Source: Spironucleus salmonicida
Taxonomy: Eukaryota
Reading direction: 5' to 3'
Assembly (NCBI RefSeq): GCF_000497125.1
Contig: NC_090596.1
Coordinates: 1,240,001-1,304,000, forward strand
DNA length: 64,000 bases
Below the pieces are notes generated by a model, which was given only the letters and a program-made list of their open reading frames with translations, had not been told where the DNA came from and made no database searches. The position numbers were made by a program, and so were the translations under genes. Positions 3,381-52,483 of this stretch are shown in pieces (position 1 is the stretch's first letter; the number at the start of each line of letters is the position of its first letter).

Positions 3381-3406
3381 AGGTTCCGACTCACTCCCGA
3401 AAACGC

Positions 3407-4813: not shown

Positions 4814-4870
4814 TCTGGAAATTTTGCCAGGGTGTAATATTATATCGGGAGTCCGCTGAAGCGCTGAGAA

Positions 4871-5695: not shown

Positions 5696-5707
5696 GGTGT
5701 CGTTATT

Positions 5708-19039: not shown

Positions 19040-20521
19040 ATCACTGAGAAATCTTTTTGTGGATGATCTGCTCGCCGTTGACCTTTAAACGAGTGAGAAC
19101 TTCTACGAGAGCTTTCTCATTTTTGGCATCGCTAGAGCAGAGAATACCTTTAGTCGTCTTAGTAATTTTGACTTAAAAGTTTACAGATGAGGAGATCGAC
19201 TCAGATAGCTTGTTAAGATCTAATTCTGTGGGAATATTTTAGAGGTCGAATTTGACAGCAGCAGCTCTTTCAGTAGTCTTAGGACCTCTAGTGGGCTTTT
19301 CAGTAGTATTGGCAGGTCTCTCTGTAGTCTTAGTAATCTTGGCAGGTCTCTCTGTAGTCTTAGTAATCTTGGCAGGTCTCTCGGTAGTCTTAGTAGTCTT
19401 AGCGGTGGGCTTATCCATAGCTTAAGAAGGCTTTGTGGCGGCCCTTTTCTCGTTACGATTTTATATGCGGTTCTTTCTTTCAGTCTTCTTTCTGGCATCA
19501 GTAATCTCCTGAAGTCTGGAGGGTTCAATAAAAGTAGCATTAGGGAAACGTTCAAAAGATGCAATACCATTGACAATCTTTTCAACCATGGCGACAGTAA
19601 CGATGAGCTTGACCTGAATGACTTTATCCATTGCCTTGGTCATAGGGGTTCTATTGAGGTAGAAATTGTAGTTTTTGATGGGCTTCTTGGCAGAATCGAC
19701 AAAAGTATCGTCTTCTTTGAGAGCTGCGAAGACTTCTTTAAGCCATGGGCGTACAATAAACTTAATATCATGAGTATCTTGCTGTTTATATGCAATAGAA
19801 GCTATTTTCCTGGCAAAAGCAGATGCGAGCTCAGGAGATCTAGACTCAAATGGGGAGGACTTAATAACAACAAAAACTTCGTTGGTACTTTTAGACACAT
19901 GAGAAGCATTCAGAGTTTTAAACTTGGTCCAATTAAGCTGGGACTGAATCTTGAGTGACTGTTGATAAATACTATTGTCGGAATCAACAACCTCAATCTT
20001 TGCATCTGGGAACATTTCCATCACGTGTTCCTGTTGGTATTTGGATGAGTTAAAAACGTAAAGATCCTTACCTGATTCGGCAACGCCTACACGGTTAGCA
20101 ATTTTTTCCTTGAACTTATCGAGCGATATGTTAAGGTTAGTTATCTTCAGCATCTTCGGAGTGTATTCCTATTTGGTAGTCGACATTTGATAAGGAGTGG
20201 TGGAACGGTCACTCCTTAAATTTTAGTATAGTCAATGTACAATAACGCTAATCTAAAAGATATAGATAAAAACTTGTCATTCGGCCAAATCCTCAACGCG
20301 AATCTGCAATGCAGAGATGCTTTTCGAGCCTGCCAGTATCAACTATGGGAATACAATAACCTTTCCTTCTGCTGCAGTTGGCTTTCCCCTACGATAACCG
20401 AGTAATAGTAGTTGGAAGCATACTTAAAATAACTACCTAAAACTCGTCACATCCGACTCACCCAAACTACTTATATACTTTGGGGCAACTGAGGCGAAAA
20501 TATCATCCAGGAAAGCGTATA
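19040..20521. repeat. Direct duplication, copy 2
   Basis: Appears identical to 16002-17483. Confidence 0.95.
19041..20186 (-). CDS. Basic hypothetical protein, 381 aa (copy 2)
   Basis: Same sequence as 16003..17148. Confidence 0.85.
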
Positions 20522-20684: not shown

Positions 20685-22937
20685 ATGAATGTCAATTATC
20701 AAGATTTTTACACATATGATTAGGAGTCCTAAATCATTAAATAAATGTATCTTTAATAATAAAAGTATTCAGTTTATAAATCAATTAATATTTAATTCCT
20801 TACGTTAAACTGTGGTGATAAGTATCTTAATGATACATTCTTTGATTCAATAGATTAAAATAATGTGGCAATATTTGTGAGTCTATAAGAATTTGATCTT
20901 GATATGACCTCAATATTAGCGCATCAGTCTAAAAGAGCTGATCTTTATGTTAAAAATTTAAATAAAAGATTCCCAAAATTTCAAATATTTGTTAAATAGA
21001 TGGGGTCTATGTTAATGATGATTTTAATCTAGAAATATATATAGTCTACAGTTACATTTTAGACAGTTGCAACTGGTCTGATGGGGAAAATAGCCAATAA
21101 AGGTGGAATTTTAGCTCGAATTCAGATCCTTGACACAACATTATTAGTTGCGGGATGTCATCTATCAGCGTCACGGGATAGAGATGGTGTCAAGCTAAGA
21201 AATGCTGATCTGCATAAAATTCTTAGCGGATATTAACCGTAGAACAAATCTAGTATATCTTCACAATATTGGGCTTCAAATTTGAAATGTAAACCAAATG
21301 TGCCAGATAGTTTTATTGACTTAGATTCAATTTTTATAATCGGTGATCTTAACTATAGAGTTGAATCTTAGCTTTCTGAAAGTAGTGTCTCAAATGGTAT
21401 CACATCTTTAGATATTTATACTTAGTTTAAGTAAGGAGATTAACTTCTAAGTTAGATAGAGAAATGGAATTTAAAAAATGATGAAAATCTTTATTTAAAT
21501 GATATTTCTGAACAAGAATTTGACTTCCTTCCAACATACTGCCTTATTCCTAATGAGTCTAATGTCCCTAGTATTAATATTTATGCTACAGATCCAACTA
21601 TTGGTAATGGAAAAGTAAGAATGCCAGCCTTTACAGATAGAGTTTTATAACGACTTATAAATTATGATATCATATTTTAGGCAACTTCTTATGACTCAGT
21701 TCCTAACTATTAGATTTCCGATCACAGGCCAGTCACTTAACTTGGTACCATTCTTATTCGCTCATATGACAAAAGACGTATGACAGAGACTAGATAAAGA
21801 ATAGCAGATGATATCAAAAAATAATTCTATGAGCTAATGCCAAAATTCACAGTAGAAGCTTAAAAAGATTATCTTAAAATTACTTCTCTTAATTCATTTA
21901 AATTAAATATAATAGTGTAAAATCATCATTAAAATTAACCACTTGTTCTAGAAGTTACAACAAATTCGCCATTTATAAAAATAGATAATCCTTTGATATA
22001 AATAAAACCTTAAAGTAAATATGATTTTTAATACCTTTACTACATATCAACGCTAAATTAAGAAATTTCATCATTATAGATTTTGAAATCACTTTTTTCT
22101 GGCATTGATCTTAATTTTATCCTTTTCTTTACACATTTTCACCATGAAGTATTGTTAGACAAAAGAAATATATAAATTTAAGTGGATACATAGTTTGAAC
22201 AGAATATATTGAGCTCTAATTTATTTACAGATAGTAATATATATGAGTCTTATATTGATAACTTATACTAAATAATAAACTAAAAAAATCTTATTGGTTA
22301 TAATACTATTAAAAATACAAAATTTAGAACAAATTTTCCTGCATCTGAATCGGATAAGTGGAATTCTCTGTCAAAACTAGTTGATGATCTTTGTATTAAA
22401 CATCATGAATACCAGACAATTTTTCATTAGATAAAAAATTCGAATATTGAATCTACAAGCAGTATAAATTAGTAGATATCACTTTTTAGAGGCTTATAAT
22501 ATTCGGAAAAAACGTTAAATCCTGAGTGTGCATAGTATTATGGTGAAATATTAACAAATTTTATCAGTCACGAATTACAATAGTTTTAAATTTTAGACTA
22601 GCATTCTGAGTTCAACATATTAAACCCATCTAGTTGCAAAGATTTCTTCTATGGATTTATAACTATATTAAAGTTTCATGCATACCCTTAACTTTAAAAT
22701 TTAATCCCAGTATTCAACTAAATTAAAAATGAGAGCAAACTGACTTCCGATGAAATTTGTAGATAGGCAAGTTTATATCTTCTTGAAACGTTGGAATATA
22801 AAACAAGATTTTAATTGTTCGGCTTATTTATGATAGAAAATATAATACCAGGTACGATAGAGAAATTTTCTTGTTTATTAAATAATAAATCGCTATATGA
22901 TGTAATTCACTTTATCTACAAAACATTAAGATATTGA
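20685..22937 (+). CDS. Inositol polyphosphate 5-phosphatase (OCRL/INPP5B-like), 750 aa
   Basis: VSLQE, TGLMGKIANKGG, GCHLSA, IGDLNYRV, FLPTY, PAFTDRVL, ISDHRPV. Confidence 0.92.
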
Positions 22938-24124: not shown

Positions 24125-25181
24125 TATCAGTAAAAATAATTGAATCGTTTAATATTAAATACTAATTATTATATTATATGATTTTTACTAAATACATAAT
24201 TTTCTTATAAGTTTAACTATGATTAATTGTTTATCTTAGTAATTACTAAAACTAGTTGAGAATAGTAGTAAAGTTATTTTACGATAAATTCAAATATTTA
24301 AATATTAATAATAATCTATAATATGATTTTCATGTGAAAGAGATATGAGTACAATTACTATGAATTTAGTAACTATTTAATCTAATAGTATAATTTTTAG
24401 TAACAGATAATAGTCATTATTTTAATGTATTCAAAACTTAGTTATATTCTTTAGTGTAAGCTTATATATAAAGAGTAACTTATCCTAAATCTAACGATAA
24501 TACTCATGTAATTACTATTCTAGAAAACTAAATAAAATAAATTAGGAAGGTTTCGATACTAAGTTTTTTGCCGCTTAAAAAAGTATAAAATGCTTAGAAA
24601 TAATATTCACATAAATACAATAAAGATTAAGTTTAATAAAATTAGTATTAATCTCATTGAATAAGTGGTTATTTCATAATAACTGTTTTTAATACTACAA
24701 ACTCTTATATTGACATATTATAATTTGCTTGATTAATACTTTTCATGATAATAATTATATATTGGCATAGTTAACTAAAGTTGAATCTTGCTATTGGTTC
24801 TAGAAATAATTGTAGATTGTTATTACCTTTACTAATATTCGCTTTGTAGTAACTGTAGTTTTATATTTATATTTTTATTAATTATTGTGAAATAGTAATA
24901 TAATATATTTATATAATTATAATATAATTATTTATATAAATTAAGACAACTAAAACGTTATGTTAAATTAAGCTATTAATATTTAATGCATATTAAAAAT
25001 AAACAATTCAATGCATTATACATATATAATTATGATTTAACTTTAATAAATTAATATACTTTTAAAATATAATAACACTAAAGCATAAATTATATTTTAT
25101 CAAATATATTTATCAATAAAATTATTGTTTATATTTATTTTATATAACTCGATAAGCTGCATTTAACCTTTTTCGTTTTAA

Positions 25182-26783
25182 ATGCTATTTGAGGGTTAAA
25201 AATCTGAGGATACCGTTCCAGCAAGTATAATAGATATCACTAAAGAAATATAAACATCAGATGACGAATAAAATATACTATTAGGAGGAAGATCTCCCTT
25301 CATAACTATATTAGACTTGGCGTATAAATAACTACTTTCTTTTCTAATTACATCAGTTACATTGTTTTTAACGCCTTTTATGATCACCAAGGCTATTCCA
25401 AACAATGAAGCAGCATTAGGTGCACTTGCTGTTGCTGCTCCATTTGAGTATCTGTCTTAAATGTTTGGATGGTTTATAGCGGTAGGTGGTAGTGCCACTA
25501 TTAGTTATTTAGTAGGGCAAAATAATATAGAAGGTGCGAAATTAGTTTTAGTACAATTAATCGCACTTAGTTTTATTATTGCTATTTTATTGGCAGTTAT
25601 TTTGCTCCCTAGCTTGAAAAGCTTGCTTTTACTTTTAATTGACGCAACTTAAGGGCAATTAGTGTTGTCCCTTTGCTATAGTTATATTGTTCCATTTATT
25701 TCTGGTGCTATCTTTGTTATGTTGTTTTTCTGTGTATTAGCTGTTTTCATGGGAACTGGATAAATGACAATGTATATGATTCTTTCTGCTGGTCAATAGA
25801 TTTTATATATTTGTATATTGTGTCCTTGTTTCTTGTTCTTAACGAATCTTGGAATTGCAGGTGCTAGTTTAGCCTTTATACTATCTTTTATACCATCAAT
25901 AATAGTAGGCGTTATATTTCTTCAAAAGAAAGGAGAAATTAACTTTGATTTCAAATTATTATTTAAAATAAGAACATTCTAGTATCTCAAAAAAGTTGCC
26001 GGTGTTGGTGGTATAGACTTGATTGCCTCTGCATCTGGTATTATTGTTTTAGGAACTATCTAAACGCTTATTACTAAAATAGCTCTAAGATATGCTGAAT
26101 AGGTTCCTGACAATGAGAAGAAGTCTATATATGAATAGGTTTTGGCAGCTTGGGGATGCCTTAGTAAAATTTACGGTGTAGTGGTTGGACTTTGTTACAA
26201 TACAACTGGAAGTTATTTAACTGCAGCAAGCTATGCAATTGGAGCTAAAAGATATGCTAGATTTTATTAACTGACTGTACTCATTTGTGTAATTACTTGT
26301 GTTTTCATATTGATAATTACTCTTATAGTACTTGGAATAGCCCCATACATTGCAGTAATTTTTTCTAAATTAGAATTCTATGTTGATCTTAGCACGACAA
26401 TAATTCGTATTTTCTGTATTACAGGTCTTATTTTACCACTGTAGTTCATTGTCACAACTTTTTGTTAAGCTGCAGATTATATAGTATTAGGCCTCATCGT
26501 AGCTTTTATCACATAAATCTTATTGCTACCAGTTCTGTTTATAACAATATATTTTTCAACTAAATCTTTACCTGTCGAGCTAAATTTTATCATATCAATG
26601 ACGAGCTTTAATATTAATGATGTTATTTCAGGTATTATTAGTGTTATTGTTATGTGTATTTCACTTAAAAAGTTTACTGGGAAGCACAATATTACAATGA
26701 CATTGAAGTTAGCATTTGCTAAAACTGATTTAGTGGATTCATTAGAGTTAAATGAAACTGAAATTTCTACCTCTTAGTACTGA
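25182..26783 (+). CDS. MATE-family efflux transporter, 533 aa
   Basis: Many TM segments; EAALGALAVAAP, GGSATISYLVGQNN, NLGIAGASLA, SYAIGAKRY. Confidence 0.9.
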
Positions 26784-28266: not shown

Positions 28267-31200
28267 ATGCAGGTAAATATAATTTTTATTGATACTGAAA
28301 ATGAACATACACTAGTTAAGCCCTTCCTTACATCAGTTTCTCGTATGGAAATTCCCAAGCTTTTTATTTTATCACCAAATTATACACATGATGAAATAAA
28401 GTTCAACCAAAATACTACAACTTTGTAAGAAAAATTGTAAGAAATTAGAAATTTTGCAGATACAGTTGCAACAGTACCTTTTAAACAGCCTAAAAAGACT
28501 TTAGACTACTAAATTTAAAAAACAACAATTCTCATTCATAATTTTGGTGTATGTGAAGCTGCTAAGCGTGAAATTGATCAGATTTACAGTGAAAATTAAT
28601 CAAATTTCTAGACATTATTAAAGGAGTGGGAGGTAAATTGTAATTAACTTATGACTACTTATCATGAGAATAACGAAGTTATCAATGAAATTCCAGAGTT
28701 ACCTATTTATACATCCCCTAAAACAGTATAGGAAATCTTTTTTGATTCATGTGTTGAGCTAAAATTATCTATCAGTGGTTATGTTTAGTTATTTGATGAT
28801 GCTTAGATTTCTGAATATAATAAGGATTAAAATTTTGTTGATTTAATGACTAAAATTGGTATGTAGATGTATAGTTTACCCAAACCTAGTTTATTCAACG
28901 AAATTGAGCTTTTTACATATATTTTTAATCCTTACTAAGAGCGTAAACTCGTTGATACCAAACCTTTTATCCGTATACCTGAAAAAGTTGATGAAATCGA
29001 AGATCCTAAAAAGAAAAAGAAACAACCTGTGAAAAAGCGTAAAGAAGAGGGATTTTTTGGTGCAGATGGCACGATTCTTTTCAACAAGGCGTTCAAGTTC
29101 ATTGTTGAACAAAGCTTTTAGAAATAAAAGTCTGATGATTTATTGATATAAACAGGTCCCACATTCCAAATAAGAAATTTTGGTAAGTTCGTAAAGTTCT
29201 TTTAAAATGCTGAAGGTTTACCTTAAGTAAGTAGTATAGGAGCAAAAGAAGAGAAGTAATTTCTTACTCTATGTAAAACTAAATTTGACGATAATATTTT
29301 GGATTAAAATAAGTTCAGTGAAGTGGTTAACGTAATTGATAAGTTAGGCCAATCTGGAGATTTATATGTACAGTGGTTAAAGACCAATAAAGTAATAACT
29401 GTTGGAGATGTCGGTGAAACACCTGCATTGCGTTATATGAATTATTTCTAAGCTGATAAAACAAAAGTCACTGATTGTAGAATTATTGAGAATATCGACA
29501 AAAAACCACCAAAACCTGCAAAAGGAATGGAAAACATGGTTTGGATGTGTAAATGTGTCAATTTATTTGAAAGTAGAACTAGTTATTTAACAAGAATATT
29601 AGATAATACTTTTAAAACCTGTCTTTTGGAGTAAAGCAACTTATTAACAGAAGTACCAGAATAGGATTTATCAGTATATAACAGTTAGTTGGATTAAATT
29701 TCTTTCAATGAATAAAATAATATTTCATCGATTATGGAAGCATTAATTATGTAATTAGAAGCCCCAAAAACTAATTCTGAAGTTTAAGCACCTTAACCAA
29801 AATCACGTTCTGCGTCTGCTAAAAAAATTATAGAAAAATAAGCAAAGCCAGATAAGAACGCTCCACCACCCCCATAAATACCTTTAGACGAATTAAATCT
29901 TTTTGGAATTACATAAAAAGATATGGCGATTTTTAATCTCACAACTGACTACAACAACTCACCAGTTTAAATCCCAGAGCTCTTTGTAAAGTCTCTTTTT
30001 GGTATTACTCCACCAACTAAAACAACTTTCACCGAAATTAATACATAAATTTCAGATTAAGGCCTTTAAATAATTGAAATAAACAACAAAACTGAAATTG
30101 CAGCTACAACTTTCGAGTAAACTTTTTTGGAAAAAGCTCAGAAACATGATTTGCGCTTACTTGATTACCATACAGAAAAAATATCTCAATTTAAATCATT
30201 GCTTAAATGCCAAATTTAACGTTAAAAACGTGAGGAATTTGAGCAAAAAAGAACCGAAAATTAAGAAATTGAACCTGAAAATTTGGAACTATCGGTTCAA
30301 GAGCTTGCCATTGCAGGTAACTATGACGAGTATATAGAGGAAGACATCAACGTTAACCAGCCATTTGATTTCCAAAGCAAATATTTTGCGAATTTCTGCA
30401 ATAAATATGAATCTTTATCGACCAGAAATGAGCTTTTTTCGCTTATCAGTGACCTGCTCGCATATGACTAGAATTGCGACGAAGACACGAAATTGTTCAA
30501 AATTAGAAACGAAGAATTCCAAAAAATTCAAATGCTCTAAAACGGCAATGAACTATTTTCACTGTTCTAAAACAGCGTTCCGCGTCTGTTTCAAACAGTT
30601 CCGTAATTCACAATTTGGGTAAACAACAGCATCGTTCAGAGCACGATTTTGAGCAACGACCTGCTTCCAGTTCCTGTTAAAATCTTGCACAGATTTTTCC
30701 TACCAAGACTAAGTCTATAGAGCGACATTTTGACTGAAAACAGCCAGCCTATCTTCCCAAGCTAAAATGACAAAATCGACATTTCTGCTTACAGCGGAAA
30801 TTTTATGGTGTTTAATTTATATAATAGTAATATATAAGAAACAATCGATTCGATTTACGGAAATATCTAATTGAAGCGGAACTATCACGAGCAGATCTCA
30901 GAGGCCGAACTAGAAGACTTAAGGGCCTCATTTGCGAGCACGGCGTCTGCGAAGAGCAACAGCAGAGCAAAATCGAACGACAAGAAGAAGAAAGAGCAAC
31001 CAGTGGAGCTGCAGCTTCCCGAGATAGTTCCTGAAGACCAACGGGATAAGAACATTTACTACTTCAACAAATACGTCGAAAAACAGTTTGAGGGTCTCAA
31101 TTTCGCTGGTTTGGACACAAAATTGGTCACAGGAAAGGTCGTTTTGGCGCTGAATTAGCTGCCAGATTTCGATATTTCCGTTCCCAGTATAGCACCGCAT

Positions 31201-34200
31201 TTCGATTTCCTGCCGGCCAAAACGTAAAATTATCGAATTAGTGATATAAGCGGTTTAGGGGTCAGTTTCATCGATAATGAGGTCTCAAAAGGTGGAATTA
31301 AGCACACTATTTTCAACCCCAACGCAGAAGTCGTTTAAATCAGAATTACACCTTACGAATTTTCAAATTTTGATGATATAACGATTTCTGTCCCTGAAAT
31401 ATAAACACCAGAATATGATATAACGGACATTATCTCAGGTTTATCTGAGACGAATCCTGATGCTTTAGTTTTTCCTGAATTGCCAGATACAGCTGATATG
31501 AACCCCAAATAATTGAAGCAAATTAAGGATAATGAGGCACAGCAGCTGTAGGAGCACAAAAAACGCAAAAAACGCGTCTAGGAGCTAGCAGAGGCTGCAG
31601 TAAAGGTCCAAGAGTCGCGTAAAGAGAAACTAAACGCTTTTGTCGACAGCAAAGTGCACTACAAAAGAGCAACGAAGTCGAGAGCCTCAGCAACGATTGC
31701 GGCCTCTAATATCAGAATTTATTACGACAATTCCGAATTTCTTATGAGCCAGAAAGACCTGCAAATTAAAGCTGATATCGACAAAAACTGCCTCTAAATA
31801 ACCAAATTTTACAAAAACGTGCGCTTTGACTAGCTAGGCGAGCTTGACTATACTCTCAAAAATAACGAGCAGAACATGCTTTTAGAGGTCAAATTGCACG
31901 TTCCGCAGGAGCAGCACACAAATTATTCTGATATAATGGTTTCCTACGAAATCAACGCCGAAAACGTCGTATGCAGCGTTTCTGTGGCGACACCAAAATT
32001 CGAAACTTTGAACTTCGAGTTATTGCACCAAAACCTCAACGAAATTTCGCTTCAATTTTGTGAAGTTGCGCCAAAATCGACGATTTTGAGCAATTCTGGA
32101 ACGCAATTTGTAGAGGAGGAGAAGAACTATTTCGCGAAATCGGCCGTGCAGCGAATTTTGGACGACGAAATGGCAAATGGGGAGCTGTTCAGCCTGGACT
32201 CATATCACTATTTCCCGCAGCTGCACCAAGGGTCCAGAACGTTCAATTATTACATTAACAGGACCGGAATCCTGCGATTTGCGCGGTTTTCGGTGCATTT
32301 GGACCAGATGGCATTCAAAAATTTGCTTAAATCGCCCAAAGAGCCTTACAGCTCTCAGGATTACTTCTACAACGTAATTCAGTCGATTCACACCACCGAG
32401 GCCCAGATTCAGGCCCAAAATCCCGGATTTTACGCAAAATAGATCAAATCCGCCTTAAAAGGCTAAAATGCAGCTTCCACTCTGCTAATTCTCCCGTTCA
32501 ACATTTCGATTTTCCACTCCGAAAACGACATTTTCAACGTAATTTTAACTCACGAAGAGCAGTGTGATATGCTAAGGCTCAAAAAGCACTCGGCGACGTT
32601 CTACTACGCAGATTCGTTTGAAATTTCCTGCAACAACGAAAACGAGCCAATTTTTGCAATTTCGGCAGCAGAAAAAACACCTGAAACCCTCAATTAGCCT
32701 ACTCTCAAAGATGCGTATTCGTACACTTTGAGGAGCCCCAAAATGTACGGCCCGGGCCTCGAATTACGCGTTTCTGAGCCCATTTCGCCCTTCTAAACGC
32801 GCCCACGCGACCCCTGTGAATTCCAACCGGACAGATCTGCGATTTTGCGCGAGAACGAGAAACCAGCCAAATCGCTAATTTTCTTTGCAGAAAACTCAAA
32901 ATCTCCAAAAATTGAGGAAATTCTGAACAATCGAATTCAAAATCTACTTTTCACTCCTAATTTTTCTACTCAAGAAATCGCGATTTTCCTCCAATTTTCG
33001 AATTCTGAGAGCCAAATCCTGAGTTCTCTGGTTCTTGCGGACGAGAAAAAGCAGACGCTCACTACGATTTTCACACAAAATTCGCTCAAAATCGAGCAGC
33101 TCTTCCTCGCTGACATTGATACGTCCCTGAGCTCGCTTTTGGCCTCTCTGGCCAAGTTCAAAGTGCCCGAATTCCTGCAAATTCGGCTCAAACGGCCCTT
33201 CGTGGAGACGAATTTGAGCAGTTTGAAGGAGTTCAAAGACGTCGCCGGGCGTCAGCTGAGCTTCGCGCAGAGCGAGAATTCGGAACTGATATAACGTAAT
33301 TTGCCCTGTCCGAGTCAAGTTTTGCGCTCTGCACGAAAGGTCGAAAACGCGCTAAAAATCGACTTTTCTGGTCGATTTTCGGCCTAAACGAACTACTGGG
33401 CGACGCCTGAGGGCTGTCTGTTCGATTCTCAAGACGCTGAAAATTCGGCTTATTGGGCAAAAATTGAAGCGAATGAGGCGGTTTGCGAGCAGAATTTGAA
33501 CGAAAATTACCACTTTTAGAAGCGCTACGTCGCGAGTGCGAATGTGAGCGGAAATCTCGTCAAGAAGATTTTGGCTAATTACGAAAAAACGACTTTGCCG
33601 CGCAAATTGGCGCAGATTCCGCAGAAAACGCTTCCTTTGCATGAAATTAAACCTATTACAAGGACTATTCGGCAGCTGGACAAGGAGGCTATTGTTTCGG
33701 CGTCGATTTAGGAGAACTACGCTCTCGCGGGCTTCAATTAAGAGGTGATTGAGCGTGAGGGCGGCACGCTCAGGAAAACTAAAAATTCCAGTTTAAAGCC
33801 CAAAATGGAGTGTAGAACGCTGCTGGTTTAGCCGAATAGTATACGGTTAGAATTTAGCACGGATGAAATTGAAGAATTTAGGACTAAAAATAAAAATAAG
33901 TCTTATTTCACTGTTTTTTACACTGTTTTCTGCAGAAATACTGGCAGAGAAAGCCTGCATGTTAGATGGGATAGGAATGTCATCATGGATACAAGTATTT
34001 TTAATGTGCTAATACCTATGAAAAGTGGTGGTTTGCCTGCTGGTTTAGGTGTCGAATGCTGTATTGAGTTCAGAATCAAATTAGACATTGAAGATGGGGA
34101 AACGCTTGATGCGCTTGTTTTAAAGACTGAAGAAGAATTAATTAGCGTTCCTATCAGTATTTGGATTGGAGAGAAATAAGAGACAATAATTATTGACTAG

Positions 34201-34509
34201 AGGCCACCTAGAAGCATTAGTTAAATGGGCATGGATATCCAAAATTAGCTGAAATTTAGCTAGGGAGATCTTGTCAAAACTGACACAATCCAGCCAGAAG
34301 TTATAGAATTTGGTAATGGGCAAGAGGCGGATTGTCAGGAAGATATTATATATGATAATTATGACATCCCAGAGATGGCGGAACAGTACAATGATGCAGA
34401 TGTAATTCACAATCAAAATTATGACTAAGAAAAAGATATTGAGAATATCAACACTGAATCTGGAAATTTTGAGAGTTTTGAGAGGCTAGACGAAGATATG
34501 AATGACTGA
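28267..34509 (+). CDS. Giant protein, 2080 aa, with a C-terminal PapD/ASH-like domain; PF6/SPAG17-like
   Basis: Track fragments at 30283, 30871, 31876, 32845 and 33985 share one frame. C-terminal CRNTGRESLHVRW...GGLPAGLGVECCIEF is PapD-like. Orthology is inference. Confidence 0.65.
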
Positions 34510-34539
34510 TCATTTTATTTTTACAAAATACGAATCACT

Positions 34540-37500
34540 TCAAAAATACCCACCATGTTTTCTAGTTAAGTGAGCATAACATTATTAAGCTGTAGTAAAA
34601 GTATCTTGGCAAACATAGCAGTTATGTGCTCCACAACAACTACAAGTTACATGGTTACAACCACTAGACTTCTCATATAAGCTTAGACATTTTTTACACT
34701 ACTTGATTCCTAATTAATATATACATTTATGAGATGGGCTGTGCCACGTATTGCATAAGCCGCAAAATTTCAACTTACAGTTTTAGTAAGGGCAGTGTAA
34801 AATAAATGCATCGTCTTTTAAAGGAATTCCTAAATAATGATGCTCCGTGCAATGTCTAAAAATATCGCTACTGAATAAATTTTACTAATAAATTTTTATT
34901 AGTAAATCTTTAACTTAATCAAAAATCGAAAAAACTACTTAACCTATTTACACAATAGGATATAATGTAAATTCATCTCCAATAGTAGTAATAGTATCCT
35001 TTGCTTTATAAGAAATCATATTTGAGTATGGCTTCTTATATTACGTTTGTATATCGTCTAGAGCACAAGTTAAGCAGATCTCAAAAAATTACGGAAAATC
35101 ATCTTGACTAGTATTTAAAATACAATTAGGTGCATTGACTGGATCATCACAACAATTACAGTTTTAGAGGGAAAAAGTCGAAAAATCTTCAGGTTTTGAT
35201 ATGTTTACAAATTAAAACGTGTTAAACTTACTGTGAACTATTTATGAATTAAGTTTATTAGTTAGGTTCAAAGGTAAACTTGTTTAAATAACTAATTGTG
35301 TCTGGATAATATTATTATCAATCGCAATAAGATTATCTGAAAAAATGAATTTTTACTAATTTAGTGATTATAAATCCATAACCAGCGATATACTTAGCGT
35401 ATTTTCTGCCAATGCCATTTCTACATAAGAGTTAGAAAGTAAAAGTAAATTATTCCTAGTCAATTTAAAGCAATTAGAAAACTAAGAGAGATTTGAGAAT
35501 TTAGTATCTAGATTGTTCTCGCCTTAAGAGCTAATAGTTACTAAACATTATGAAGATTAAAATTAATGTGTATAATATTATTACCTATCAACAGTAATAA
35601 TAGTTTTACCCACTAAAGGAATCAAATGAATAATTTTATCAAAGTCGTCCTGTATGCTTTGTATAATTTTAACAGATTATACTTATTTCGTACGAATACT
35701 CATATAAACTTATCTGCTACTAGATTAAATAAATATCTATGAATTCTATTAGTCTAGTTAATAATGTGTTAAAATGGCCCAAACAATTGGCTGAGTAATT
35801 TATGTTATAAAACCTTTTGATAATCTAACAATGAAATTAGCAGTTGCACTAACTTACTATAAAATGTAATAATTTTTGCCTAATTTATAAGCAAAGCACT
35901 AATCTGTCAGATAGAATAACGATGGATATTAAATAATTATTCCACAGTTTTAATCAAATATTTATGATTAAATTTATAGTATTTATAAAATATTCATTAT
36001 TTTAGAGTAACTTAACGTTTGTAAAGTGTGCTATATATCTTTACTTGTTATTTTAAACAATTCGGATAAAACAAAAATATCAACAATTATTTAGATATTT
36101 AATCCTAACAATAAACAGTTTATTTTTAACTCTTATGAAGTTAAAGCTAGCAATGGTAAAATAATGCTAATCAAGCAAAATATATCTGATGACTGTGCTG
36201 TAATTTATTATTCTGTTTCAACAAATATTTACGAAAACTCATTAAGCATATAGAGTATAATTAAAATTATAGTATCTTCGACATTACCATGTATTTATAA
36301 TATTTTATCTTTTACTTGAAGCAAGTAATTCATATTTGCAAGTATCCTACAATCAAGTGGCAATAATTGCACTTCTTAAAAATCATATTTACTACTCATT
36401 TCCTATGAAATTAAATCCTTAAAAACCCATGAATAATAAACTTAAACACTAGAAGAAAACGGGGATATCGAAACCTTTACTATAATTCTTTTAGCAAAGC
36501 GTGGTGTATAGAAAATTTCTTAAAATTGTTATTCACCTTAGTTTAAAACTAATGAACAAAAACTTCTTTTATCGGGTAAATCAAATATAAAACTAAATTA
36601 TTAGATTTTTTTAATAATCTAACTTTTAGACGCTATTTTACATTATTAATTTTCAAATTGAAGTATAATATCTGATTCAAGGAGTTAATGAATATCATGA
36701 TCTAAAATACGAGCAGCTCCCATTGCTATAGAAGTTGATGGTTGGAATGCCAATAAAGTTTACTTAACATTACTTTTTACTAAAAATTATTAAATTTTAT
36801 TGCGTAAAGGGCGGCAGTTAATAAACCCTCCTGTTAAAAAAACATAAGTAGGAATTCCAAAACGTTAGAACAAAATATTGATTTATGTTGATACTTAGGT
36901 AATAATATCTTCTAAAATTGTATCAAAAAAGCTTTTATCAAAAAGTAATAATTTCTCATCAGAATCAAAAGCGATACTATCAGAAAGTTAATCGCAATTA
37001 ATCTCAGCAACCTCAACATCAAAGTTATAATTAAATAAATCCAATTAAATAAAATCTTCATCAAATATTGTAGATTTGATTTTTTAAAATGCCTTAATTA
37101 AATATAGTAAATTTCCAGTAACCTACAAACTATTAGTAATAATCTCGAGTACTTTTTAATCTATATAACTACCTCCACAGTTTAATCCACATTATGATAT
37201 TAAAGTTGGTATCTGTTGTTGTTAATTAACTTAAAATATCGAAAAATCAATAGTAGACCCTCCAAAATCAATCAAATAAATTTTTTCCGAAGGTTTTATA
37301 TTTACTTTACTTTCATAAGATATTTACATAAATGCTGCCACAGGTTCTTGCACGGTATAAATGTTTTCTATATTTATTTTAACTTATTTATCTAAATTCG
37401 TTTAGTTATATATATTTAATGCACTTGCAAGGCATTTTCTCATAAAAATTTAATAGTCAGTAGATGCTAATGATGGAATCGTGATTATCCATTAGATTTC

Positions 37501-37908
37501 ATCCTCTGTATTTTATAATATTGCGAATAATTAGTTTACAATTAATAAATACACCGTAGTAAATACTTCTTATGCAGAGAAATTTATCTTACTATCTGTA
37601 ATTTTGAGATCGAAAATATTATTATTATTATTTAAGCTACTTTAGCATAGTTAACGCTTATAGTTTGCAAGGCAAAAATAATTATCTATTTAAGAAGTTG
37701 ATTAATGAATTGCCTTTTGAAAAGATGCATTTTTGCTAGTTAATTTAATAAACTTTGGTTTGCGTTTATTTAATAGTGAAATAAACAAATCTGAAGAAAA
37801 CTTATCATTTGTAGGAAAATTTGTTTAGGAATTATAAGATTAAACAGAACCATCTATATTAATAGAGAACATTGAATTAGAATTTCCTAAATCAATGCTA
37901 ATAATCAT
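34540..37908 (-). CDS. Hsp70/actin-like ATPase fused to an RBR (IBR-RING2) E3 ubiquitin ligase, 1122 aa
   Basis: No in-frame TGA found over 1123 codons. N-terminal IDLGNSNS, WIITIP, EPVAA, IDFGGSTIDFS, CGGSYID, LTGGF, AMGAA; C-terminal CPYQNCKLKFCGLC..WH and CKKC..EKSSGCNHVTC..CGAHNCYVC. Confidence 0.88.
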
Positions 37909-37962
37909 TTAAGGAGTGTATATCAAAAATAATGCATATGAATATATATAATTAGTTTGTTA

Positions 37963-39693
37963 TCACACGATTAATTAACTGTTAGAATCGGTTCTTTATA
38001 TGAGAACATCATTATCCCGCTTAGGCATTTTATGCTTTTTGCTTGATTTCTTGACCACAATAACTATAATAACACATACAATGACCAATCCTGCTACTGA
38101 ACCAACGGCAATTCCAATAATTGAGCCGACTGACATATTAACACCGCAAATACCGGGATTCAACTTGCATTCTAAACATTGCTCTTCCACTAACTTAGAA
38201 CCATCAACACAGAGCTAGCACTTACTATTTGTATCACATTATGCACAATTTGGAATGAGAATATCTCCACATTGACATTCTTGCCCTAACGTGATATCCT
38301 TGCAAAAATCACATTTTCCTTCTTTCAATGAATAACCCGGAGCACACATAGTACATGTATTGCCTTAACACTAGCGACACCCTGTAATTTAAGTATCATC
38401 ACAGTTACATTCTTAGTTATCATTTAACATACATGAAACACACTTGTTATCCATTTTAAAATGCCCAGGTGAGCATTTTTCACAACTTTTAATATCTAAA
38501 CACGAACTGCAGTTCGAAGCACAATCCATACAAGAATCCGGAGCGGCAATAATTTTGTGGCAGTATTAGCCTTCCCTGCAAGGAGCTTGTAATCCGCACC
38601 CCTCAACTATGCAAGTCCCAAGAATTAATTCTGCGTTATCAACACAAGAACCGCAGCCTTTTTACGAACAGCTGGCGCAGTTTTTGAGCAAATCTCCACC
38701 GCACGTGCAGACGCTCCCCAAAGGAGCATTTTTCTAGCATTTCTAACACTGGCCGCCAACGAGTGTGAAGCCATCAATACACTTTCCACATTCCCCATCT
38801 TTGCACATCCCACAACTCTCAAATTACTTCTCACCACAATTGCAAAGGCTTCCGGCTGGTGATTCCTGCGAGCAGCTCTGGCAAGTATTTTGCGATAAAA
38901 ATGCACCTTCTTTACAAGAAATACATTAATTCCACTTTCCATGACATGCCTTGCAACTACTCGAGCACGTGATGCAAGTGTTAGTAGATGTTTCTGAAAT
39001 ATCACAGAACTAACCTGCCTTACACTGCGAATCTATCATACAGTCGTCCTTGAAACATGAGCCTATGATTAATCTATATCCCGAAATACAGGAAATACAC
39101 TTTGTACCGCTACAGGAAGCGCAATTTCTTACCAGTGAAGTATCACAGCGACATTACAGTTGTTCTGGCATCGCGATATCACAAAGCTCACACTTAAATG
39201 TAGAACTGATATAATAATTAGAGATACAAACTTCGCACTCCTCTTTTGCATTACATTTTGTACAATTTTTAGAGCAGTTTTTGCAAGTTGATTCCGGTGT
39301 CAAGTACTGATCGCTCTTACAGGTTAAACAAGTATTTATTGAAGAGCATGTAATACAGCTTTCCGAGCATTTTTCACACGTTTATCCGCTTAAAAAATAA
39401 CCTACGCTGCATGTTTAGCATTGTTTTTCGTCTGTGCACGAGCGGCAGTTCGCACCGCACGACTCGCATATTTCATTTTTGAGGAAAAATGTGTGAGAGC
39501 ATAAATCACATTTTTCTGAGTTACACTATGCGCAATTTTATAGTATGGTACCACATTTACACGAAGCACCAACAGGCTGATCCTCAGAGCAAGTGAGACA
39601 TGTGATGCTTTCCTCTCCTGCAACAAGGGGGCAGAAATATCCGTCCTTGCAATTGTTAAGTGAGCTAGTGCATTCTCCAGCGTCAGCACCCAT
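37963..39693 (-). CDS. Cysteine-rich membrane protein (CRMP), 576 aa
   Basis: ATG 39693 MGADAGECTSSLNNCKDGYFCP; CxxC/CxC array; TM SIIGIAVGSVAGLVIVCVIIVIVV followed by KKSSKK. Paralog of 412..2154. Confidence 0.92.
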
Positions 39694-39989
39694 TTGTTAA
39701 TGGGAAAGGTGGAGCGGGATATGAGTTGAATCTGCAAACTAAGTGACTTAATAAAAGGAATGATGAAATGAATTTATTAGTTGTATCAAATATTATGTAT
39801 CAAGGAGATACAGGTTAAAATATATTTATACTAAAACTATAATTTATGTGTTTAAACAATATATATACTTTGAATTTAAACCGCTTAACCAAAAATAACA
39901 TATTTTACATGTTATATAAAATATTTAAAAATATTTTTGCGTGTTTGTAAAAATTCTCATATCAAATAACTTATATTATAGTAAAAATT

Positions 39990-40775
39990 TCACAATCCGA
40001 AAACTGGAAAAACTGCAAACTTTCTTCTACTCTCAGGAAACAGCTCATTAAGGCGCTCCTATTTCTTGTAACCCCACACGCGAATCTAGCCATAACCGAA
40101 AATAGCAAAAATTAATGCCCTTGCGTTACTGCAGCTGAGTCCAAAACATACCCAAGAAAGAAGTTCAAACGTATAATTAGGGCAAGCCACATATTTGAAA
40201 AGCAGACTTGAAGGGTTCTAGTAACCTTTTTTACCACTCCTAATTAGACGCAAATGTATATGGCAAAAGCCATTCAGAAATTCTGAAATTATAAAGCAAA
40301 CACCCCAGAACACGTTGAAATTTACTTAATTTTGGACCAGAACGAAGAACGAAAATCCGTAATAGTATGCACAGTTCTTGAAAACGTTACGGATCGGCAT
40401 TGTCGCGTTAGAAAATTCGTGGACGAACATTGTTTCCAAAATGCGTTTAGAGAAATGGAAAATCCAAAAATACACCTATGGAGTTGAAGAAAAAAGAAAT
40501 GTGGAAATTAACAGCGGACCCATGTACTCGAGCATAAATACTAATCTATATGAGATTTACGGGCCTATATATTTTAGAGTTATTTCTGATGTCTCGATCT
40601 GTTTTTCAATTTCCTGTTTTTAGTTCAGATACGTATTTTTTGACACTGAAATTAGAATTCTCGATGGTTTAAAGCCGTACAGTGCGGCACATGCATGATG
40701 CAATTGGTGCCCAGTCGCTGATGGTGACATTGGGAGCATTTTGAACTCATTCTTGTAATTGACTTTTAACATCAT
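39990..40775 (-). CDS. TECR: Trans-2,3-enoyl-CoA reductase (Tsc13/TECR), 261 aa
   Basis: [57 protein letters not shown]. Confidence 0.92.
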
Positions 40776-50883: not shown

Positions 50884-52092
50884 TCAGTTTTGGTCGACAA
50901 GACCAATGAGTACTGTAATATTATCAGTTGAACCCAACAAATATGCCATTCTAGTCATTGTAGCTGCACAGCGGTCTTCTCTGGTCATATTTTAGGTAGG
51001 CTCAGTACAAACTTTGAAGTTTACAAATGTCATACCAGCCGCAGCAAGTAAACATTGATCAGCTTCTTCAACGTTGCCTTCCATATAATATCTGGCAACT
51101 TTTTAGAATAATTTCATCTGATCATCTAATGGATATTCTTCTTCAGGTTAAATTAAACCAAAACAACCGCGAACGATACTATCTACTTATTCGTTGTTTA
51201 AAACATCAAATAAGCCGTCACATGCTAATAATATATATTCTAAGTCATCAACTTCGAAAACATGTACATCAGGTTCCGCAATAACACCAAATTATTTATA
51301 TTCGTCATCTCCAATAGCTCTAGATACAGCAAGCATACCATTTACTCTTGGCACACCGAACATTGTGGTAACAAAACTACCCGCAGCTTCAACTCGAGCT
51401 CTTTCACCTATTTCATTAGGTTTATGGTCATGAGTACCTTCAATATATTTCTATCTAGTACCGATGACACATCTAGCATCGCCTGCATTAGCAGTATACA
51501 AAACATTACTTTCTGCATCAAATACTGCAGCAACAGCAGTACATCCGCTTTATCTACAAGTCTGAAGGAAAGCTCTATCCATTTATAAAAAGCATGTTCG
51601 TAAAGCACTATCAATAGCAGCTGGGAACATTTCATTTTATTATAACATCTGAGTATAGTTTTCTCCACAGAAAATAGCAGCCTAATCTCCTGCATGACCG
51701 TCAAACACACCAGCAATATTAAATCTTCTACCATCAAGTTCAACAAGTGTAACAGCATGAGCATCCTCATTAGTAGCTCTTCTACCTTAAATAGTACAAT
51801 GGCCAAAGCTAATGAAAACTTCAGGTCTAGGTGCTGAGATACCAGCACGTGCACGCAATTGGCGCATCTACAGTTCAGCTGCTCTTGCGCGTTACTATAA
51901 AGCAAGTGGGCGTTAAAGAGATTCGGATGCAGATTTTGCTAGCTCAATATGTTTATCAGCATCTACAACTGTTTAGTTAGCTTCTGACAATAACTAATCA
52001 CATTACATAATCAACTCATCTAATTAAGGAGATATCGATAAAATCTATGATTAATCATAAAAAATAGGAGCTACAGTAGATGGGATTGACAT
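50884..52092 (-). CDS. Protein phosphatase 2C, 402 aa
   Basis: QGRRATNEDAH, GVFDGHAG, SGCTA, ANAGDAR, DHKP, LAVSRAIGD, LACDGLFDV, GSTDNIT. Confidence 0.95.
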
Positions 52093-52105
52093 TTTAGCTT
52101 TATTT

Positions 52106-52113
52106 GGAGTGGA
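52106..52113 (-). promoter_or_regulatory. C-rich TCCACTCC motif 13 nt upstream of the PP2C ATG
   Basis: The same motif recurs just upstream of several ATGs in this window. Confidence 0.6.
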
Positions 52114-52483
52114 CGAAATGTTATGTTTATTTAAATATTATACCATATGAGGATATTTAATTTTCATTTATATACAACGTATTTACTATCAGTTTTTCGA
52201 ATAAAAATAATACCTTATAAATAGAAATACTATATACAACACTATTAATTATTTCCTATTATATACTTTTTGTAAACTTGTTCGCATTTATTATTGATAA
52301 TTTCTGACTTTGCTAATGCTGCCTGTTTTCCGGATAACTAGAAACACTTAACCCCGATTTCTATTATTCTGTAATACTACCATAAAAATAAAATTAACTG
52401 CTTCATTTAACGCAAACCTTGCTAATATCATTTTTCTCTCAGACTGACTTCCTACTAATGTTACTAACTTATCTTTGAATTTA

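What the first reader, a model, noticed from the sequence alone, without database searches (positions are those of the whole stretch)
34540..37908. Hsp70-type ATPase fused to an RBR ubiquitin ligase in one polypeptide
Seen: a 1122-aa minus-strand ORF that is absent from the supplied track. The first ~400 aa carry the ordered Hsp70/actin ATPase motifs (IDLGNSNS, WIITIP, EPVAA ~37340, IDFGGSTIDFS ~37260, CGGSYID, LTGGF ~36830, AMGAA ~36720). No canonical substrate-binding domain or EEVD is recognisable. After ~500 unassigned aa come a degenerate RING1, an IBR, and RING2 with the catalytic GCNH cysteine at 34657-34659. Known: Hsp70s normally recruit separate E3s such as CHIP, and RBR ligases are typically autoinhibited by accessory domains. 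Inference: a nucleotide-gated or self-contained quality-control ligase. I do not know of this architecture being characterised. From memory, the tail CYAHL..HGG resembles plant DEAH-helicase-RBR fusions, which would suggest ATPase-module swapping.
Basis: partly seen in the sequence, partly recalled or inferred. Interest (0 to 1): 0.82.

Follow-up and report, generated by a model that had tools for sequence, protein, structure and literature searches.

The report
Hsp70-like ATPase fused to RBR ligase
A protist gene really does encode one long protein that joins an Hsp70-type ATP-binding domain to an RBR-type ubiquitin ligase module, a combination found in no other protein searched here, but what it does is still untested.

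Summary
Under code 6 (TAA/TAG=Q), window 34540-37908 (-) is one 1122-aa ORF with no in-frame TGA.

- **Domains.** Residues 2-399 are an Hsp70-family nucleotide-binding domain of the atypical type I recall as HSPA12-like. Residues 917-1122 are an RBR module: a one-zinc degenerate RING1, an IBR, and a RING2 with catalytic Cys1084 at 34657-34659. About 510 residues between them match nothing and fold at low confidence.
- **Relatives.** The RBR belongs to the lineage of DEAD/DEAH-helicase-RBR proteins and shares their degenerate RING1, linker motif and CYxHLxxxHGG tail.
- **One product.** Contigs from four public runs (one study, RNA only guessed) break at gene borders, and one spans almost the whole ORF with no joint.
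- **Rarity.** Of the best 150 of 659 hits among 1.84 billion representatives (149 other than the protein itself), 8 matched the N domain only, 141 the C module only, and none both.
- **Already public.** The gene model is in public databases.

ATP-gated ligase activity is inference only. I rate it a new variant of a known kind, of moderate interest.

The parts
34540..37908 (-). Whole coding sequence, 1122 codons plus the TGA stop at 34540-34542, one exon, genetic code 6
   Evidence: The exact protein is in NCBI/UniRef. A contig of run X1 covers 34514-37892 with no joint or indel.
36712..37905 (-). Hsp70-family nucleotide-binding domain, residues 2-399 (atypical type without an SBD; the label 'HSPA12-like' is recalled, not from a call)
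   Evidence: A profile of 4 relatives, built without the query, scores 92.7 bits (E 8.8e-31) over residues 2-399. The A1 profile hits DnaK, mortalin and Hsc70 NBDs in the PDB at E 1e-18 to 1e-16. The AF2 model (pTM 0.63) gives top Foldseek hits to Hsp70s at E 2e-14. TIGR02350 DnaK matches at E 2.3e-5. Pfam HSP70 alone scores only 14.5 bits against a cut-off of 20.6.
37873..37896 (-). Phosphate-1 motif IDLGNSNS (residues 5-12). It lies upstream of Met13, so it argues for Met1 as the start.
   Evidence: it aligns to the family's IDfGTsrSGya motif.
37240..37272 (-). Phosphate-2 motif IDFGGSTIDFS (residues 213-223)
35161..36711 (-). Unassigned middle region, residues 400-916. It is open and coding but has no detectable relatives.
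   Evidence: 0 of the 149 retrieved hits other than the protein itself match residues 441-900. hhalign against the helicase-RBR alignment covers only 918-1122. AF2 pLDDT is mostly below 50. The frame is kept open.
36055..36183 (-). Two adjacent hydrophobic stretches, residues about 576-618. They could be buried helices or a membrane hairpin.
   Evidence: Kyte-Doolittle 19-residue windows reach 1.95 and 2.15. AF2 predicts helices here at low confidence.
35065..35160 (-). Degenerate RING1, residues 917-948. Only four Cys are kept at the conserved ligand columns (C917/C920 and C945/C948).
   Evidence: aligned with the C..C...C..C of helicase-RBR relatives. pLDDT is 74-90. Foldseek alignments of 217-245 columns span whole RBR modules.
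34852..35064 (-). RING1-IBR linker, residues 949-1019, with the group-specific motif YPIVQIGQV (relatives have WPxIPIGQL)
   Evidence: The motif occurs in 27 of 141 C-terminal hits, concentrated among the best-scoring ones.
34723..34851 (-). IBR domain, residues 1020-1062 (C1020, H1023, C1039, C1044, C1049, C1052, H1056, C1062)
   Evidence: Invariant or nearly invariant columns in A2 and A3. pLDDT is 86-95. Pfam PF01485 did not match the protein.
34555..34698 (-). RING2 (catalytic domain) with its tail, residues 1071-1118: C1071, C1074, C1089, C1092, C1097, C1100, C1110, H1113, H1118
   Evidence: Pfam IBR_1 at E 1.8e-4, 21.8 bits, below its cut-off of 27. Parkin and HHARI RING2 in the PDB at E 1e-3 to 1e-2. 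hhalign probability 99.8, E 1.2e-28. pLDDT is 90-98.
34657..34659 (-). Codon of the putative catalytic Cys1084, in GCNH
   Evidence: (column conserved in at least 90% of rows).

Best explanation
This is a real, intron-less gene of a code-6 protist. Compact gene spacing and Giardia-VSP-like neighbours suggest a diplomonad. It is probably expressed.

**Shown.** It encodes one 1122-aa protein in three parts:
1. An Hsp70-family nucleotide-binding domain (residues 2-399). It is of the atypical type without a substrate-binding domain, and its nucleotide-binding motifs are retained.
2. About 510 lineage-specific residues.
3. An RBR module (residues 917-1122) of the helicase-RBR lineage, with every zinc ligand and the active-site Cys1084 kept.

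**Inferred origin.** The gene arose when the RBR cassette of a DEAD/DEAH-helicase-RBR ancestor was joined to an Hsp70-like ATPase in place of the helicase.

**Inferred mechanism.** It works as a thioester-forming E3. An E2~ubiquitin docks at the RING1-like domain, ubiquitin passes to Cys1084, and then to a substrate. The ATP cycle of the Hsp70-like domain would control either client binding or release of the RBR from an inactive state, as accessory domains do in other RBR ligases.
For: **The ORF is real and continuous.**
- establish the open frame.
- The same protein is in public databases.
- Contigs of 4 runs from 1 study break at 34511/34514 and at 37892/38016-38019, with summed depths of about 87, 25 and 590 for the three adjacent genes. 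That step pattern fits RNA better than DNA.
- One contig covers 34514-37892 with no joint or indel, and no difference passed the listing threshold.

**The N-terminal domain is Hsp70-like.**
- A profile built without the query scores 92.7 bits over residues 2-399.
- A profile search of the PDB hits Hsp70 NBDs at E 1e-18, with some alignments full length at positions 3-412.
- The fold search puts Hsp70s at the top.
- The best NCBIfam family is DnaK, at E 2.3e-5.
- The motifs D6 in IDLG, E188 in EPVAA, D213 and GGST in IDFGGSTID, and G359-G360 in LTGGF align with the family consensus.

**The C-terminal module is an RBR.**
- hhalign against 12 helicase-RBR-type proteins gives probability 99.8 and E 1.2e-28 over residues 918-1122.
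- Every Cys or His column that is invariant in that alignment is kept in the query (read by eye).
- AF2 pLDDT is 74-98 for residues 911-1122.
- The listed Foldseek hits at ranks 1-49 are all RBR ligases: RNF216, parkin, HHARI, HOIP, HOIL-1 and ARIH2.

**Its relatives carry helicases.**
- Helicase-type Pfam domains were found in P0009, P0011, P0016, P0018, P0022 and P0026, and in P0155, the full-length cluster-mate of P0005.
Against: - No activity was tested.
- On the query alone, the Pfam matches to HSP70 (14.5 bits against 20.6) and IBR_1 (21.8 against 27) are below the curated cut-offs.
- RING1 keeps only four Cys at the conserved ligand columns, so E2 binding is uncertain.
- The 510-residue middle has no relatives and folds at low confidence. 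Nothing indicates how the two ends would communicate.
- The runs are only guessed to be RNA and come from one study.
- Contigs stop at 37857-37892, short of the Met1 ATG at 37906-37908. Reads therefore do not settle Met1 against Met13, and a Met13 start would remove the phosphate-1 loop.
- 5 of the 10 scanned long relatives that carry the linker motif showed no helicase Pfam domain: P0004, P0012, P0019, P0027 and P0105. The ancestral partner is therefore not certain.
- MreB structures also score near E 1e-12 in the fold search.
Confidence: 0.55

Rival explanations
1. The fusion is real but one or both ends are non-enzymatic. The Hsp70-like domain would be only a binding or scaffolding module with no ATP turnover, or the RBR with its one-zinc RING1 could not take ubiquitin from an E2. 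The protein would then be an adaptor, not an ATP-coupled ligase.
For: RING1 lacks the central Cys/His ligands. Several non-ligand positions that are invariant in relatives are changed in the query (WP.IP to YP.VQ, CP.HP to CT.HH, CPxC to CKxC, HWCY to HNCY). The phosphate loops have substitutions (GTT to GNS, GGGT to GGST). Pfam scores are below their cut-offs.
Against: Every zinc ligand and the catalytic Cys are kept. All nucleotide-binding motifs are present and aligned. The degenerate RING1 is conserved across many relatives that keep an intact RING2, which suggests it still functions. The frame is kept open over 1122 codons.
Confidence: 0.25
2. The long ORF yields two products. An internal start of transcription or translation would give an RBR-only (or middle plus RBR) protein and a separate Hsp70-like protein. 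The single ORF would then reflect only the scarcity of stop codons in a code with TGA as the sole stop.
For: In code 6, ORFs run on easily: many overlapping chance ORFs of 100-320 aa appear. In run X2 the ORF is covered by several contigs, with a break at 36106-36129. Contigs cannot show transcript ends.
Against: An upstream product would have no stop codon before 34540. The middle has 0 in-frame TGA where 6.5-9 are expected. X1 has one contig across 34514-37892, X3 and X4 have single contigs of 3.1-3.2 kb, and depth is even at 17-25.
Confidence: 0.07
3. The N-terminal domain is not of the Hsp70 family but some other actin-fold (ASKHA) ATPase, such as an MreB- or actin-like protein or a kinase.
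For: MreB structures appear at ranks 28-47 of the fold search with E about 1e-12. There are weak matches to BcrAD_BadFG and MamK.
Against: Every sequence-profile test ranks Hsp70 first. The relatives P0116 and P0023 pass the Pfam HSP70 cut-off, and P0113 falls just short of it at 20.5 bits against 20.6. The top 27 listed fold-search hits are all Hsp70 entries.
Confidence: 0.05
4. Assembly misjoin or annotation artefact.
For: None found.
Against: Contigs of four public runs reproduce the whole stretch. No difference passed the listing threshold, and single contigs showed 0-2 other letters. These runs may not be independent of the assembly.
Confidence: 0.02

Closest known systems
Helicase ('Plant I') subfamily of RBR ubiquitin ligases. 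[quoted passage not shown] I recall, from no call, that Arabidopsis DEAH11/DEAH12 are members.
   Same: The RBR cassette over residues 918-1122 is shared (hhalign probability 99.8). So is the tail C-Y-x-H-L-x3-H-G-G. With a protist subgroup it also shares the one-zinc RING1 and the WPxxPxGQL linker.
   Different: There is no DEAD/DEAH helicase, HA2 or KH_DEAH11 domain. The N-terminal NTPase is an Hsp70-type domain instead. The 510 residues in between match nothing in the helicase proteins.
Atypical Hsp70s without a substrate-binding domain (HSPA12A/B-like; this name is recalled, not from a call)
   Same: The nucleotide-binding domain aligns over its full length with all motifs.
   Different: The roughly 160-residue C-terminal part of these proteins (profile positions 427-589) is not matched. 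None of the 8 retrieved relatives carries an RBR.
Hsp70 with CHIP, or parkin with Hsp70 (a chaperone and an E3 as separate proteins; textbook knowledge)
   Same: An Hsp70-type ATPase and a ubiquitin ligase are brought together.
   Different: Here they are joined covalently. The Hsp70 part has no SBD or EEVD tail, so the CHIP-type docking mode cannot apply.
Structurally characterised RBR ligases: RNF216, parkin, HHARI, HOIP, HOIL-1
   Same: The IBR-RING2 fold and the catalytic Cys in a GC(N/M)H context.
   Different: RING1 lacks one zinc site. A 70-residue conserved linker is inserted between RING1 and IBR. The accessory domains are different.

Membership tests
RBR (RING1-IBR-RING2) E3 ligases | RING2 with an active-site Cys and two zinc sites | tested here: met
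   C1071, C1074, C1084 (catalytic), H1086, C1089, C1092, C1097, C1100, C1110 and H1113 align with parkin and HHARI RING2 and with conserved columns. pLDDT is 90-98.
RBR (RING1-IBR-RING2) E3 ligases | IBR domain with its Cys/His ligand pattern | tested here: met
   The ligand columns are invariant in 41 aligned sequences. The fold search aligns 190-245 columns to whole RBR modules. Pfam PF01485 itself did not match.
RBR (RING1-IBR-RING2) E3 ligases | Canonical two-zinc C3HC4 RING1 that binds the E2 | tested here: not met
   Only four Cys are kept at the conserved ligand columns, at 917/920 and 945/948. The same loss is seen in the helicase-bearing relatives.
RBR (RING1-IBR-RING2) E3 ligases | Score above the Pfam curated cut-off | tested here: not met
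   IBR_1 scores 21.8 bits and IBR_2 17.3, both against a cut-off of 27.
RBR (RING1-IBR-RING2) E3 ligases | Ubiquitin thioester formation and transfer | not testable with these tools
   Needs a biochemical assay.
Helicase (Plant I) RBR subfamily | RBR sequence of the subfamily type, including the CYxHLxxxHGG tail | tested here: met
Helicase (Plant I) RBR subfamily | N-terminal DEAD/DEAH helicase core | tested here: not met
   No helicase family matches at E up to 1. hhalign aligns only residues 918-1122.
Hsp70 family (PF00012) | Actin-fold nucleotide-binding domain with phosphate-1, phosphate-2 and adenosine motifs | tested here: met
Hsp70 family (PF00012) | Score above the Pfam curated cut-off for the protein itself | tested here: not met
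   14.5 bits against 20.6, over residues 206-263 only.
Hsp70 family (PF00012) | Substrate-binding domain (beta sandwich plus helical lid) and EEVD tail | tested here: not met
   No profile match beyond residue 408. Residues 404-520 fold at pLDDT below 50. The protein ends in HGGYF.
Hsp70 family (PF00012) | ATP hydrolysis | not testable with these tools
   Needs a biochemical assay.
HSPA12-like atypical Hsp70s (name recalled) | Full-length NBD similarity, including WxLTVPAIW and ALEPEAA-type motifs | tested here: met
   92.7 bits over residues 2-399; alignment.
HSPA12-like atypical Hsp70s (name recalled) | Their C-terminal domain of about 160 residues | tested here: not met
   Profile positions 427-589 are unmatched.

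The most novel reading that the evidence does not exclude
This is a self-contained, ATP-driven ubiquitin ligase. An Hsp70-type nucleotide-binding domain, in place of the RNA helicase of its relatives, uses its ATP cycle to open or close a covalently attached RBR module or to hand it clients. RBR cassettes would then be interchangeable output modules for unrelated NTPase engines. It would also be the first E3 with a built-in Hsp70 ATPase.
Probability: 0.25. Interest if true: 0.7.

Novelty: new variant of a known kind. Interest (0 to 1): 0.5.

Why it matters
Chaperone ATPases and ubiquitin ligases normally cooperate as separate proteins. Here evolution has tied an Hsp70-type ATPase directly to an RBR catalytic cassette that elsewhere sits behind an RNA helicase.

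If the ATPase controls the ligase, this would be a compact natural model for how an NTPase cycle gates RBR activity. It would also support the idea that the helicase-type RBR cassette is a portable output module.

The limits are real. It is a single lineage-restricted gene of unknown function in a poorly studied protist, and domain shuffling is common in such genomes.

Tried and rejected
- **Word-index protein searches.** The whole protein and residues 900-1122 found only the protein itself. A third search with alignment A3 and 'longer' lengths examined only proteins of 1886-5000 aa, not the 400-1900 aa I intended. It gave one helicase-RBR, P0152. These three calls therefore say little about fused forms.
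- **Own genome.** None is held, so paralogues and separate Hsp70-like or helicase-RBR genes of the same organism could not be looked for. A tblastn of the protein against the window found no second copy.
- **ESM Atlas.** It does not take a protein read under another code. I did not pursue this.
- **Metagenome scan with the protein.** One 1816-base contig matched residues 1033-1100 only. It is uninformative about the architecture.
- **RNA runs.** No holder is on record as RNA. The four runs are 'RNA?' by guess.
- **Transcript ends.** Contig ends were not used as transcript ends. The neighbouring gene's contigs also stop about 50 bases short of its stop codon.
- **The middle region.** It gave no phmmer hit among the 149 retrieved proteins other than the protein itself, no hhalign match to helicase-RBR bodies and no Pfam family, and its AF2 model has low confidence. 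A KH domain like that of DEAH11-type proteins was considered but nothing supports it.
- **Substrate-binding domain after the NBD.** The top fold-search hits include constructs of the NBD plus the beta-sandwich part of the SBD, but TM-scores do not rise and pLDDT there is below 50. Rejected as evidence.
- **Literature.** Full-text searches found no paper describing an Hsp70-RBR or Hsp70-IBR fusion. One search failed on a term that was too short. I judged these from listings and abstracts, plus passages of PMC2904391 and PMC4327156.
- **Earlier findings of this scan.** Nothing came up by place, sequence or words.
- **Complex prediction.** Not used. No binding claim is made, and its text admits window proteins by code 11 only.
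Full report
**1. The observation**

Under NCBI table 6, window 34540-37908 (minus strand) is one ORF of 1122 codons, with 91 TAA/TAG codons read as Gln. Under table 11 no ORF of 60 aa or more lies inside the stretch. The reading frame has no TGA except the terminal stop, while the other five frames have 9-40.

For the unassigned middle alone (codons 401-910), the count is 0 in frame against 2-16 in the other frames. Only 4 of 20000 mononucleotide shuffles and 13 of 20000 codon-position shuffles reach 0. The frame is therefore kept open by selection along its whole length, not by the scarcity of stops in this code.

The exact 1122-aa protein is already in NCBI/UniRef, on a contig of 1.92 Mb. 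A 1110-aa form starting at Met13 is in EukProt.

**2. Setting**

Several features point to a diplomonad-like protist. This is my inference.
- The window needs code 6.
- It has long intron-less ORFs separated by very short spacers: 55 bases upstream of this ORF and 30 bases to the convergent 2080-aa ORF downstream.
- Cysteine-rich membrane proteins flank the gene, and one of them (37963-39960) weakly matches Pfam 'Giardia variant-specific surface protein'.

No whole genome is held for the window.

**3. Expression and continuity**

Four public runs from a single study hold 97-99% of the sampled words of the ORF. The tool only guesses that they are RNA. When laid on 33000-40500:
- Their contigs break at the gene borders, at 34490-34517 | 34514-34531 and at 37857-37892 | 38016-38154.
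- The three adjacent genes have very different depths, about 61-87, 17-26 and 368-593.

That pattern is expected of RNA and not of genomic DNA. This is my reading, not a proof.

In X1 a single 3379-base contig covers 34514-37892. X3 and X4 have single contigs of 3193 and 3106 bases, and X2 has overlapping pieces. No joints or indels were reported. No difference passed the listing threshold, and single contigs showed 0-2 other letters. So there is no intron, stop or misjoin between the two domains.

Contigs cannot show transcript ends. They stop 16-51 bases short of the Met1 ATG, so reads leave Met1 against Met13 open. I favour Met1. The 12 codons before Met13 encode I-I-S-I-D-L-G-N-S-N-S, which aligns residue for residue with the phosphate-1 loop of the family. 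An untranslated leader would not preserve that.

**4. The N-terminal domain**

On its own the protein gives only weak Pfam hits: HSP70 at 14.5 bits over residues 206-263, and BcrAD_BadFG at 16.9 bits. Both are below their cut-offs.

The exhaustive phmmer search of 1.84 billion representatives found 8 proteins among the best 150 that match the N-terminal 440 residues, with library E-values from 2e-12 to 4e-7. Of those 8:
- Two pass the Pfam HSP70 cut-off and a third (P0113) falls just short at 20.5 bits against 20.6.
- One (P0116) is named 'molecular chaperone DnaK (HSP70)' by its source.

Further tests agree:
- A profile built from four of them, without the query, matches residues 2-399 at 92.7 bits, E 8.8e-31.
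- A profile that includes the query hits DnaK, mortalin, Hsc70, BiP and Ssb nucleotide-binding domains in the PDB at E 1e-18 to 1e-16. Some of these alignments run over the whole domain.
- NCBIfam's best family for the query itself is DnaK, at E 2.3e-5 over residues 179-408.
- An AlphaFold2 model of residues 1-520 (8-row alignment, pTM 0.63, pLDDT 63-90 in most 10-residue blocks of residues 1-400, lower over residues 29-77) has Hsp70 entries as its top 27 listed structural matches, with E from 2e-14. MreB appears from rank 28.

The nucleotide-binding motifs are kept: IDLG (D6), EPVAA (E188), IDFGGSTID (D213, G215-T218), GG at 245-246 and LTGGF (G359-G360). There are conservative changes in the glycine-rich loops.

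Nothing after residue about 400 matches an Hsp70 substrate-binding domain, or the C-terminal domain of the atypical relatives. The protein ends in HGGYF, not EEVD. I call the relatives 'HSPA12-like' from memory of their motifs; no tool gave that name.

**5. The C-terminal module**

Of the 149 listed hits other than the protein itself, 141 match only the last 222 residues or so.

*Zinc ligands and catalytic Cys.* Alignment shows:
- An IBR with ligands C1020, H1023, C1039, C1044, C1049, C1052, H1056 and C1062.
- A RING2 with C1071, C1074, catalytic C1084 in G-C-N-H, C1089, C1092, C1097 and C1100.
- The tail C1110-Y-x-H1113-x4-H1118-G-G, which I read as completing the second zinc site.

These columns are invariant or at least 90% conserved in 41 sequences. 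PDB sequence hits are the RING2 domains of parkin, HHARI and RNF216, at E from 1e-3.

*Structure.* AlphaFold2 models residues 911-1122 with 10-residue block means of 74-98, apart from a dip at about 961-990. The listed Foldseek matches at ranks 1-49 are all RBR ligases, aligned over 35-245 columns and over 185-245 for most of those solved as whole RBR modules. E-values are weak (2e-3 and upward) because the query carried 500 poorly modelled residues.

*RING1.* It is degenerate. Only C917/C920 and C945/C948 remain at the conserved ligand columns, and a conserved linker of about 70 residues carrying YPIVQIGQ follows.

*Shared with a group of relatives.* Both features recur in other proteins. The linker motif occurs in 27 of the 141 C-terminal hits (81 of them have enough upstream sequence to be judged), and these are concentrated among the best-scoring ones.
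- 11 of the 27 are 900 aa or longer, and I scanned 10 of them.
- 5 of those 10 have helicase-type Pfam domains: P0009, P0011, P0016, P0018 and P0022.
- 5 have none detected: P0004, P0012, P0019, P0027 and P0105.
- P0091 was not scanned.
- P0005 gives the longest alignment to the query (residues 804-1122). It is a fragment whose 1537-aa cluster-mate P0155 has DEAD and HA2_N domains.

*Profile comparison.* A 12-protein alignment of these long relatives compared with the query gives probability 99.8 and E 1.2e-28, but only over residues 918-1122. Every Cys or His that is invariant in that alignment is present in the query. Five invariant non-ligand residues are changed.

*Wider lineage.* Canonical members with a full RING1 share the tail. 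These include fungal-type CCCH/RRM-RBR proteins and a 2108-aa protein with DEAD, RRM, Helicase_C, KH_DEAH11 and IBR domains. This is the 'Helicase/Plant I' RBR subfamily, which Marin (PMC2904391, passages read) describes as ancient and repeatedly lost.

**6. The middle**

Residues 400-916 have:
- no hit among the retrieved proteins;
- no Pfam family;
- no match to the bodies of the helicase-RBR proteins;
- pLDDT mostly below 50, with helices predicted around residues 520-640.

Two hydrophobic stretches at about 576-618 reach Kyte-Doolittle values of 1.95 and 2.15. I cannot tell whether they are buried helices or a membrane hairpin.

**7. Is the architecture found elsewhere?**

A protein with both domains related to these would score as the sum of both and rank at the top. 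Among the 149 listed hits other than the protein itself, 8 match only the N domain, 141 only the C module, and none both.

Two short Gln-rich fragments resemble the N domain at 27-31% identity: P0113 (169 aa) and P0130 (91 aa, from metagenome contigs). They may come from related code-6 organisms whose genes are fragmented by standard-code gene calling. Their full architecture could not be seen.

The word-index searches were uninformative. Five full-text searches found no description of such a fusion. InterPro and CDART could not be queried. So the architecture is rare and, as far as I could search, undescribed, but I cannot call it unique.

**8. How it most likely works**

*Shown.* One open, probably transcribed gene; an Hsp70-type nucleotide-binding domain with its motifs intact; an RBR cassette of the helicase lineage with its ligands and catalytic Cys intact.

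*Inferred from RBR enzymology.* E2~ubiquitin docks at the RING1-like domain, ubiquitin is passed to Cys1084 and then to a substrate.

*Inferred by analogy.* RBR ligases are commonly held inactive by accessory domains, and this cassette sits behind an NTPase in its relatives. The ATP cycle of the Hsp70-like domain may therefore regulate client engagement or release of the RBR.

*Inferred evolutionary reading.* The helicase was replaced by an Hsp70-like ATPase, or the cassette was captured by such a gene. This fits the derived RING1 and linker features shared with helicase-bearing relatives. It is weakened because half of the scanned long relatives show no recognisable helicase.

**9. Verdict**

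The 'module swapping' idea is supported. The functional claim is untested. I file it as a new variant of a known kind: an RBR ligase of the helicase lineage with a different NTPase. It is of moderate interest.

Noticed in passing
window 1-6200: G+C is 52-66% here, against 24-45% in the rest of the window. ORFs in this part use very few TAA/TAG-Gln codons (1-14 per ORF). They include a second VSP-like cysteine-rich membrane protein (202-2154, +) and a Pro/Glu/Thr/Asp-repeat protein (2151-3380, +). I could not tell whether this is a compositional island, highly expressed genes or foreign DNA.
   Followed up: partly
window 16003-17148 and 19041-20186 (both -): Two ORFs of 381 aa have identical protein sequences, contain a TTERPAKITK repeat and match no Pfam family. 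They flank a 573-aa ORF (17239-18960) that looks coiled-coil to me by eye and has an internal repeat. This looks like a recent segmental duplication of about 3 kb.
   Followed up: partly
window 37963-39960 (-): A cysteine-rich, VSP-like membrane protein lies directly upstream of the finding. It has by far the highest contig depth of the stretch, 368-593. Its contigs cover only about 38016-39694, so the real start is probably an internal Met and not the first ATG at 39960.
   Followed up: partly
window 28267-34509 (+): A 2080-aa intron-less ORF with no Pfam family converges on the finding, with only 30 bases between the two stop codons. In X1 the contigs of the two genes end 2 bases apart, at 34511 and 34514, without merging.
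   Followed up: partly
window 20685-22937 (+), 24960-26783 (+), 50884-52167 (-), 52911-54947 (-): Ordinary neighbours: an Endonuclease/Exonuclease/phosphatase family 2 protein, a MatE transporter, a PP2C phosphatase and a HEAT-repeat protein.
   Followed up: no
proteins P0034, P0045, P0048, P0050, P0062, P0066, P0067, P0072, P0075: A large set of 650-900-aa proteins share the RING2 tail of the helicase lineage. Six of the nine scanned combine CCCH zinc fingers and/or an RRM with a canonical RBR. The cassette is thus repeatedly attached to RNA-binding modules, which makes the Hsp70-like partner here stand out.
   Followed up: partly
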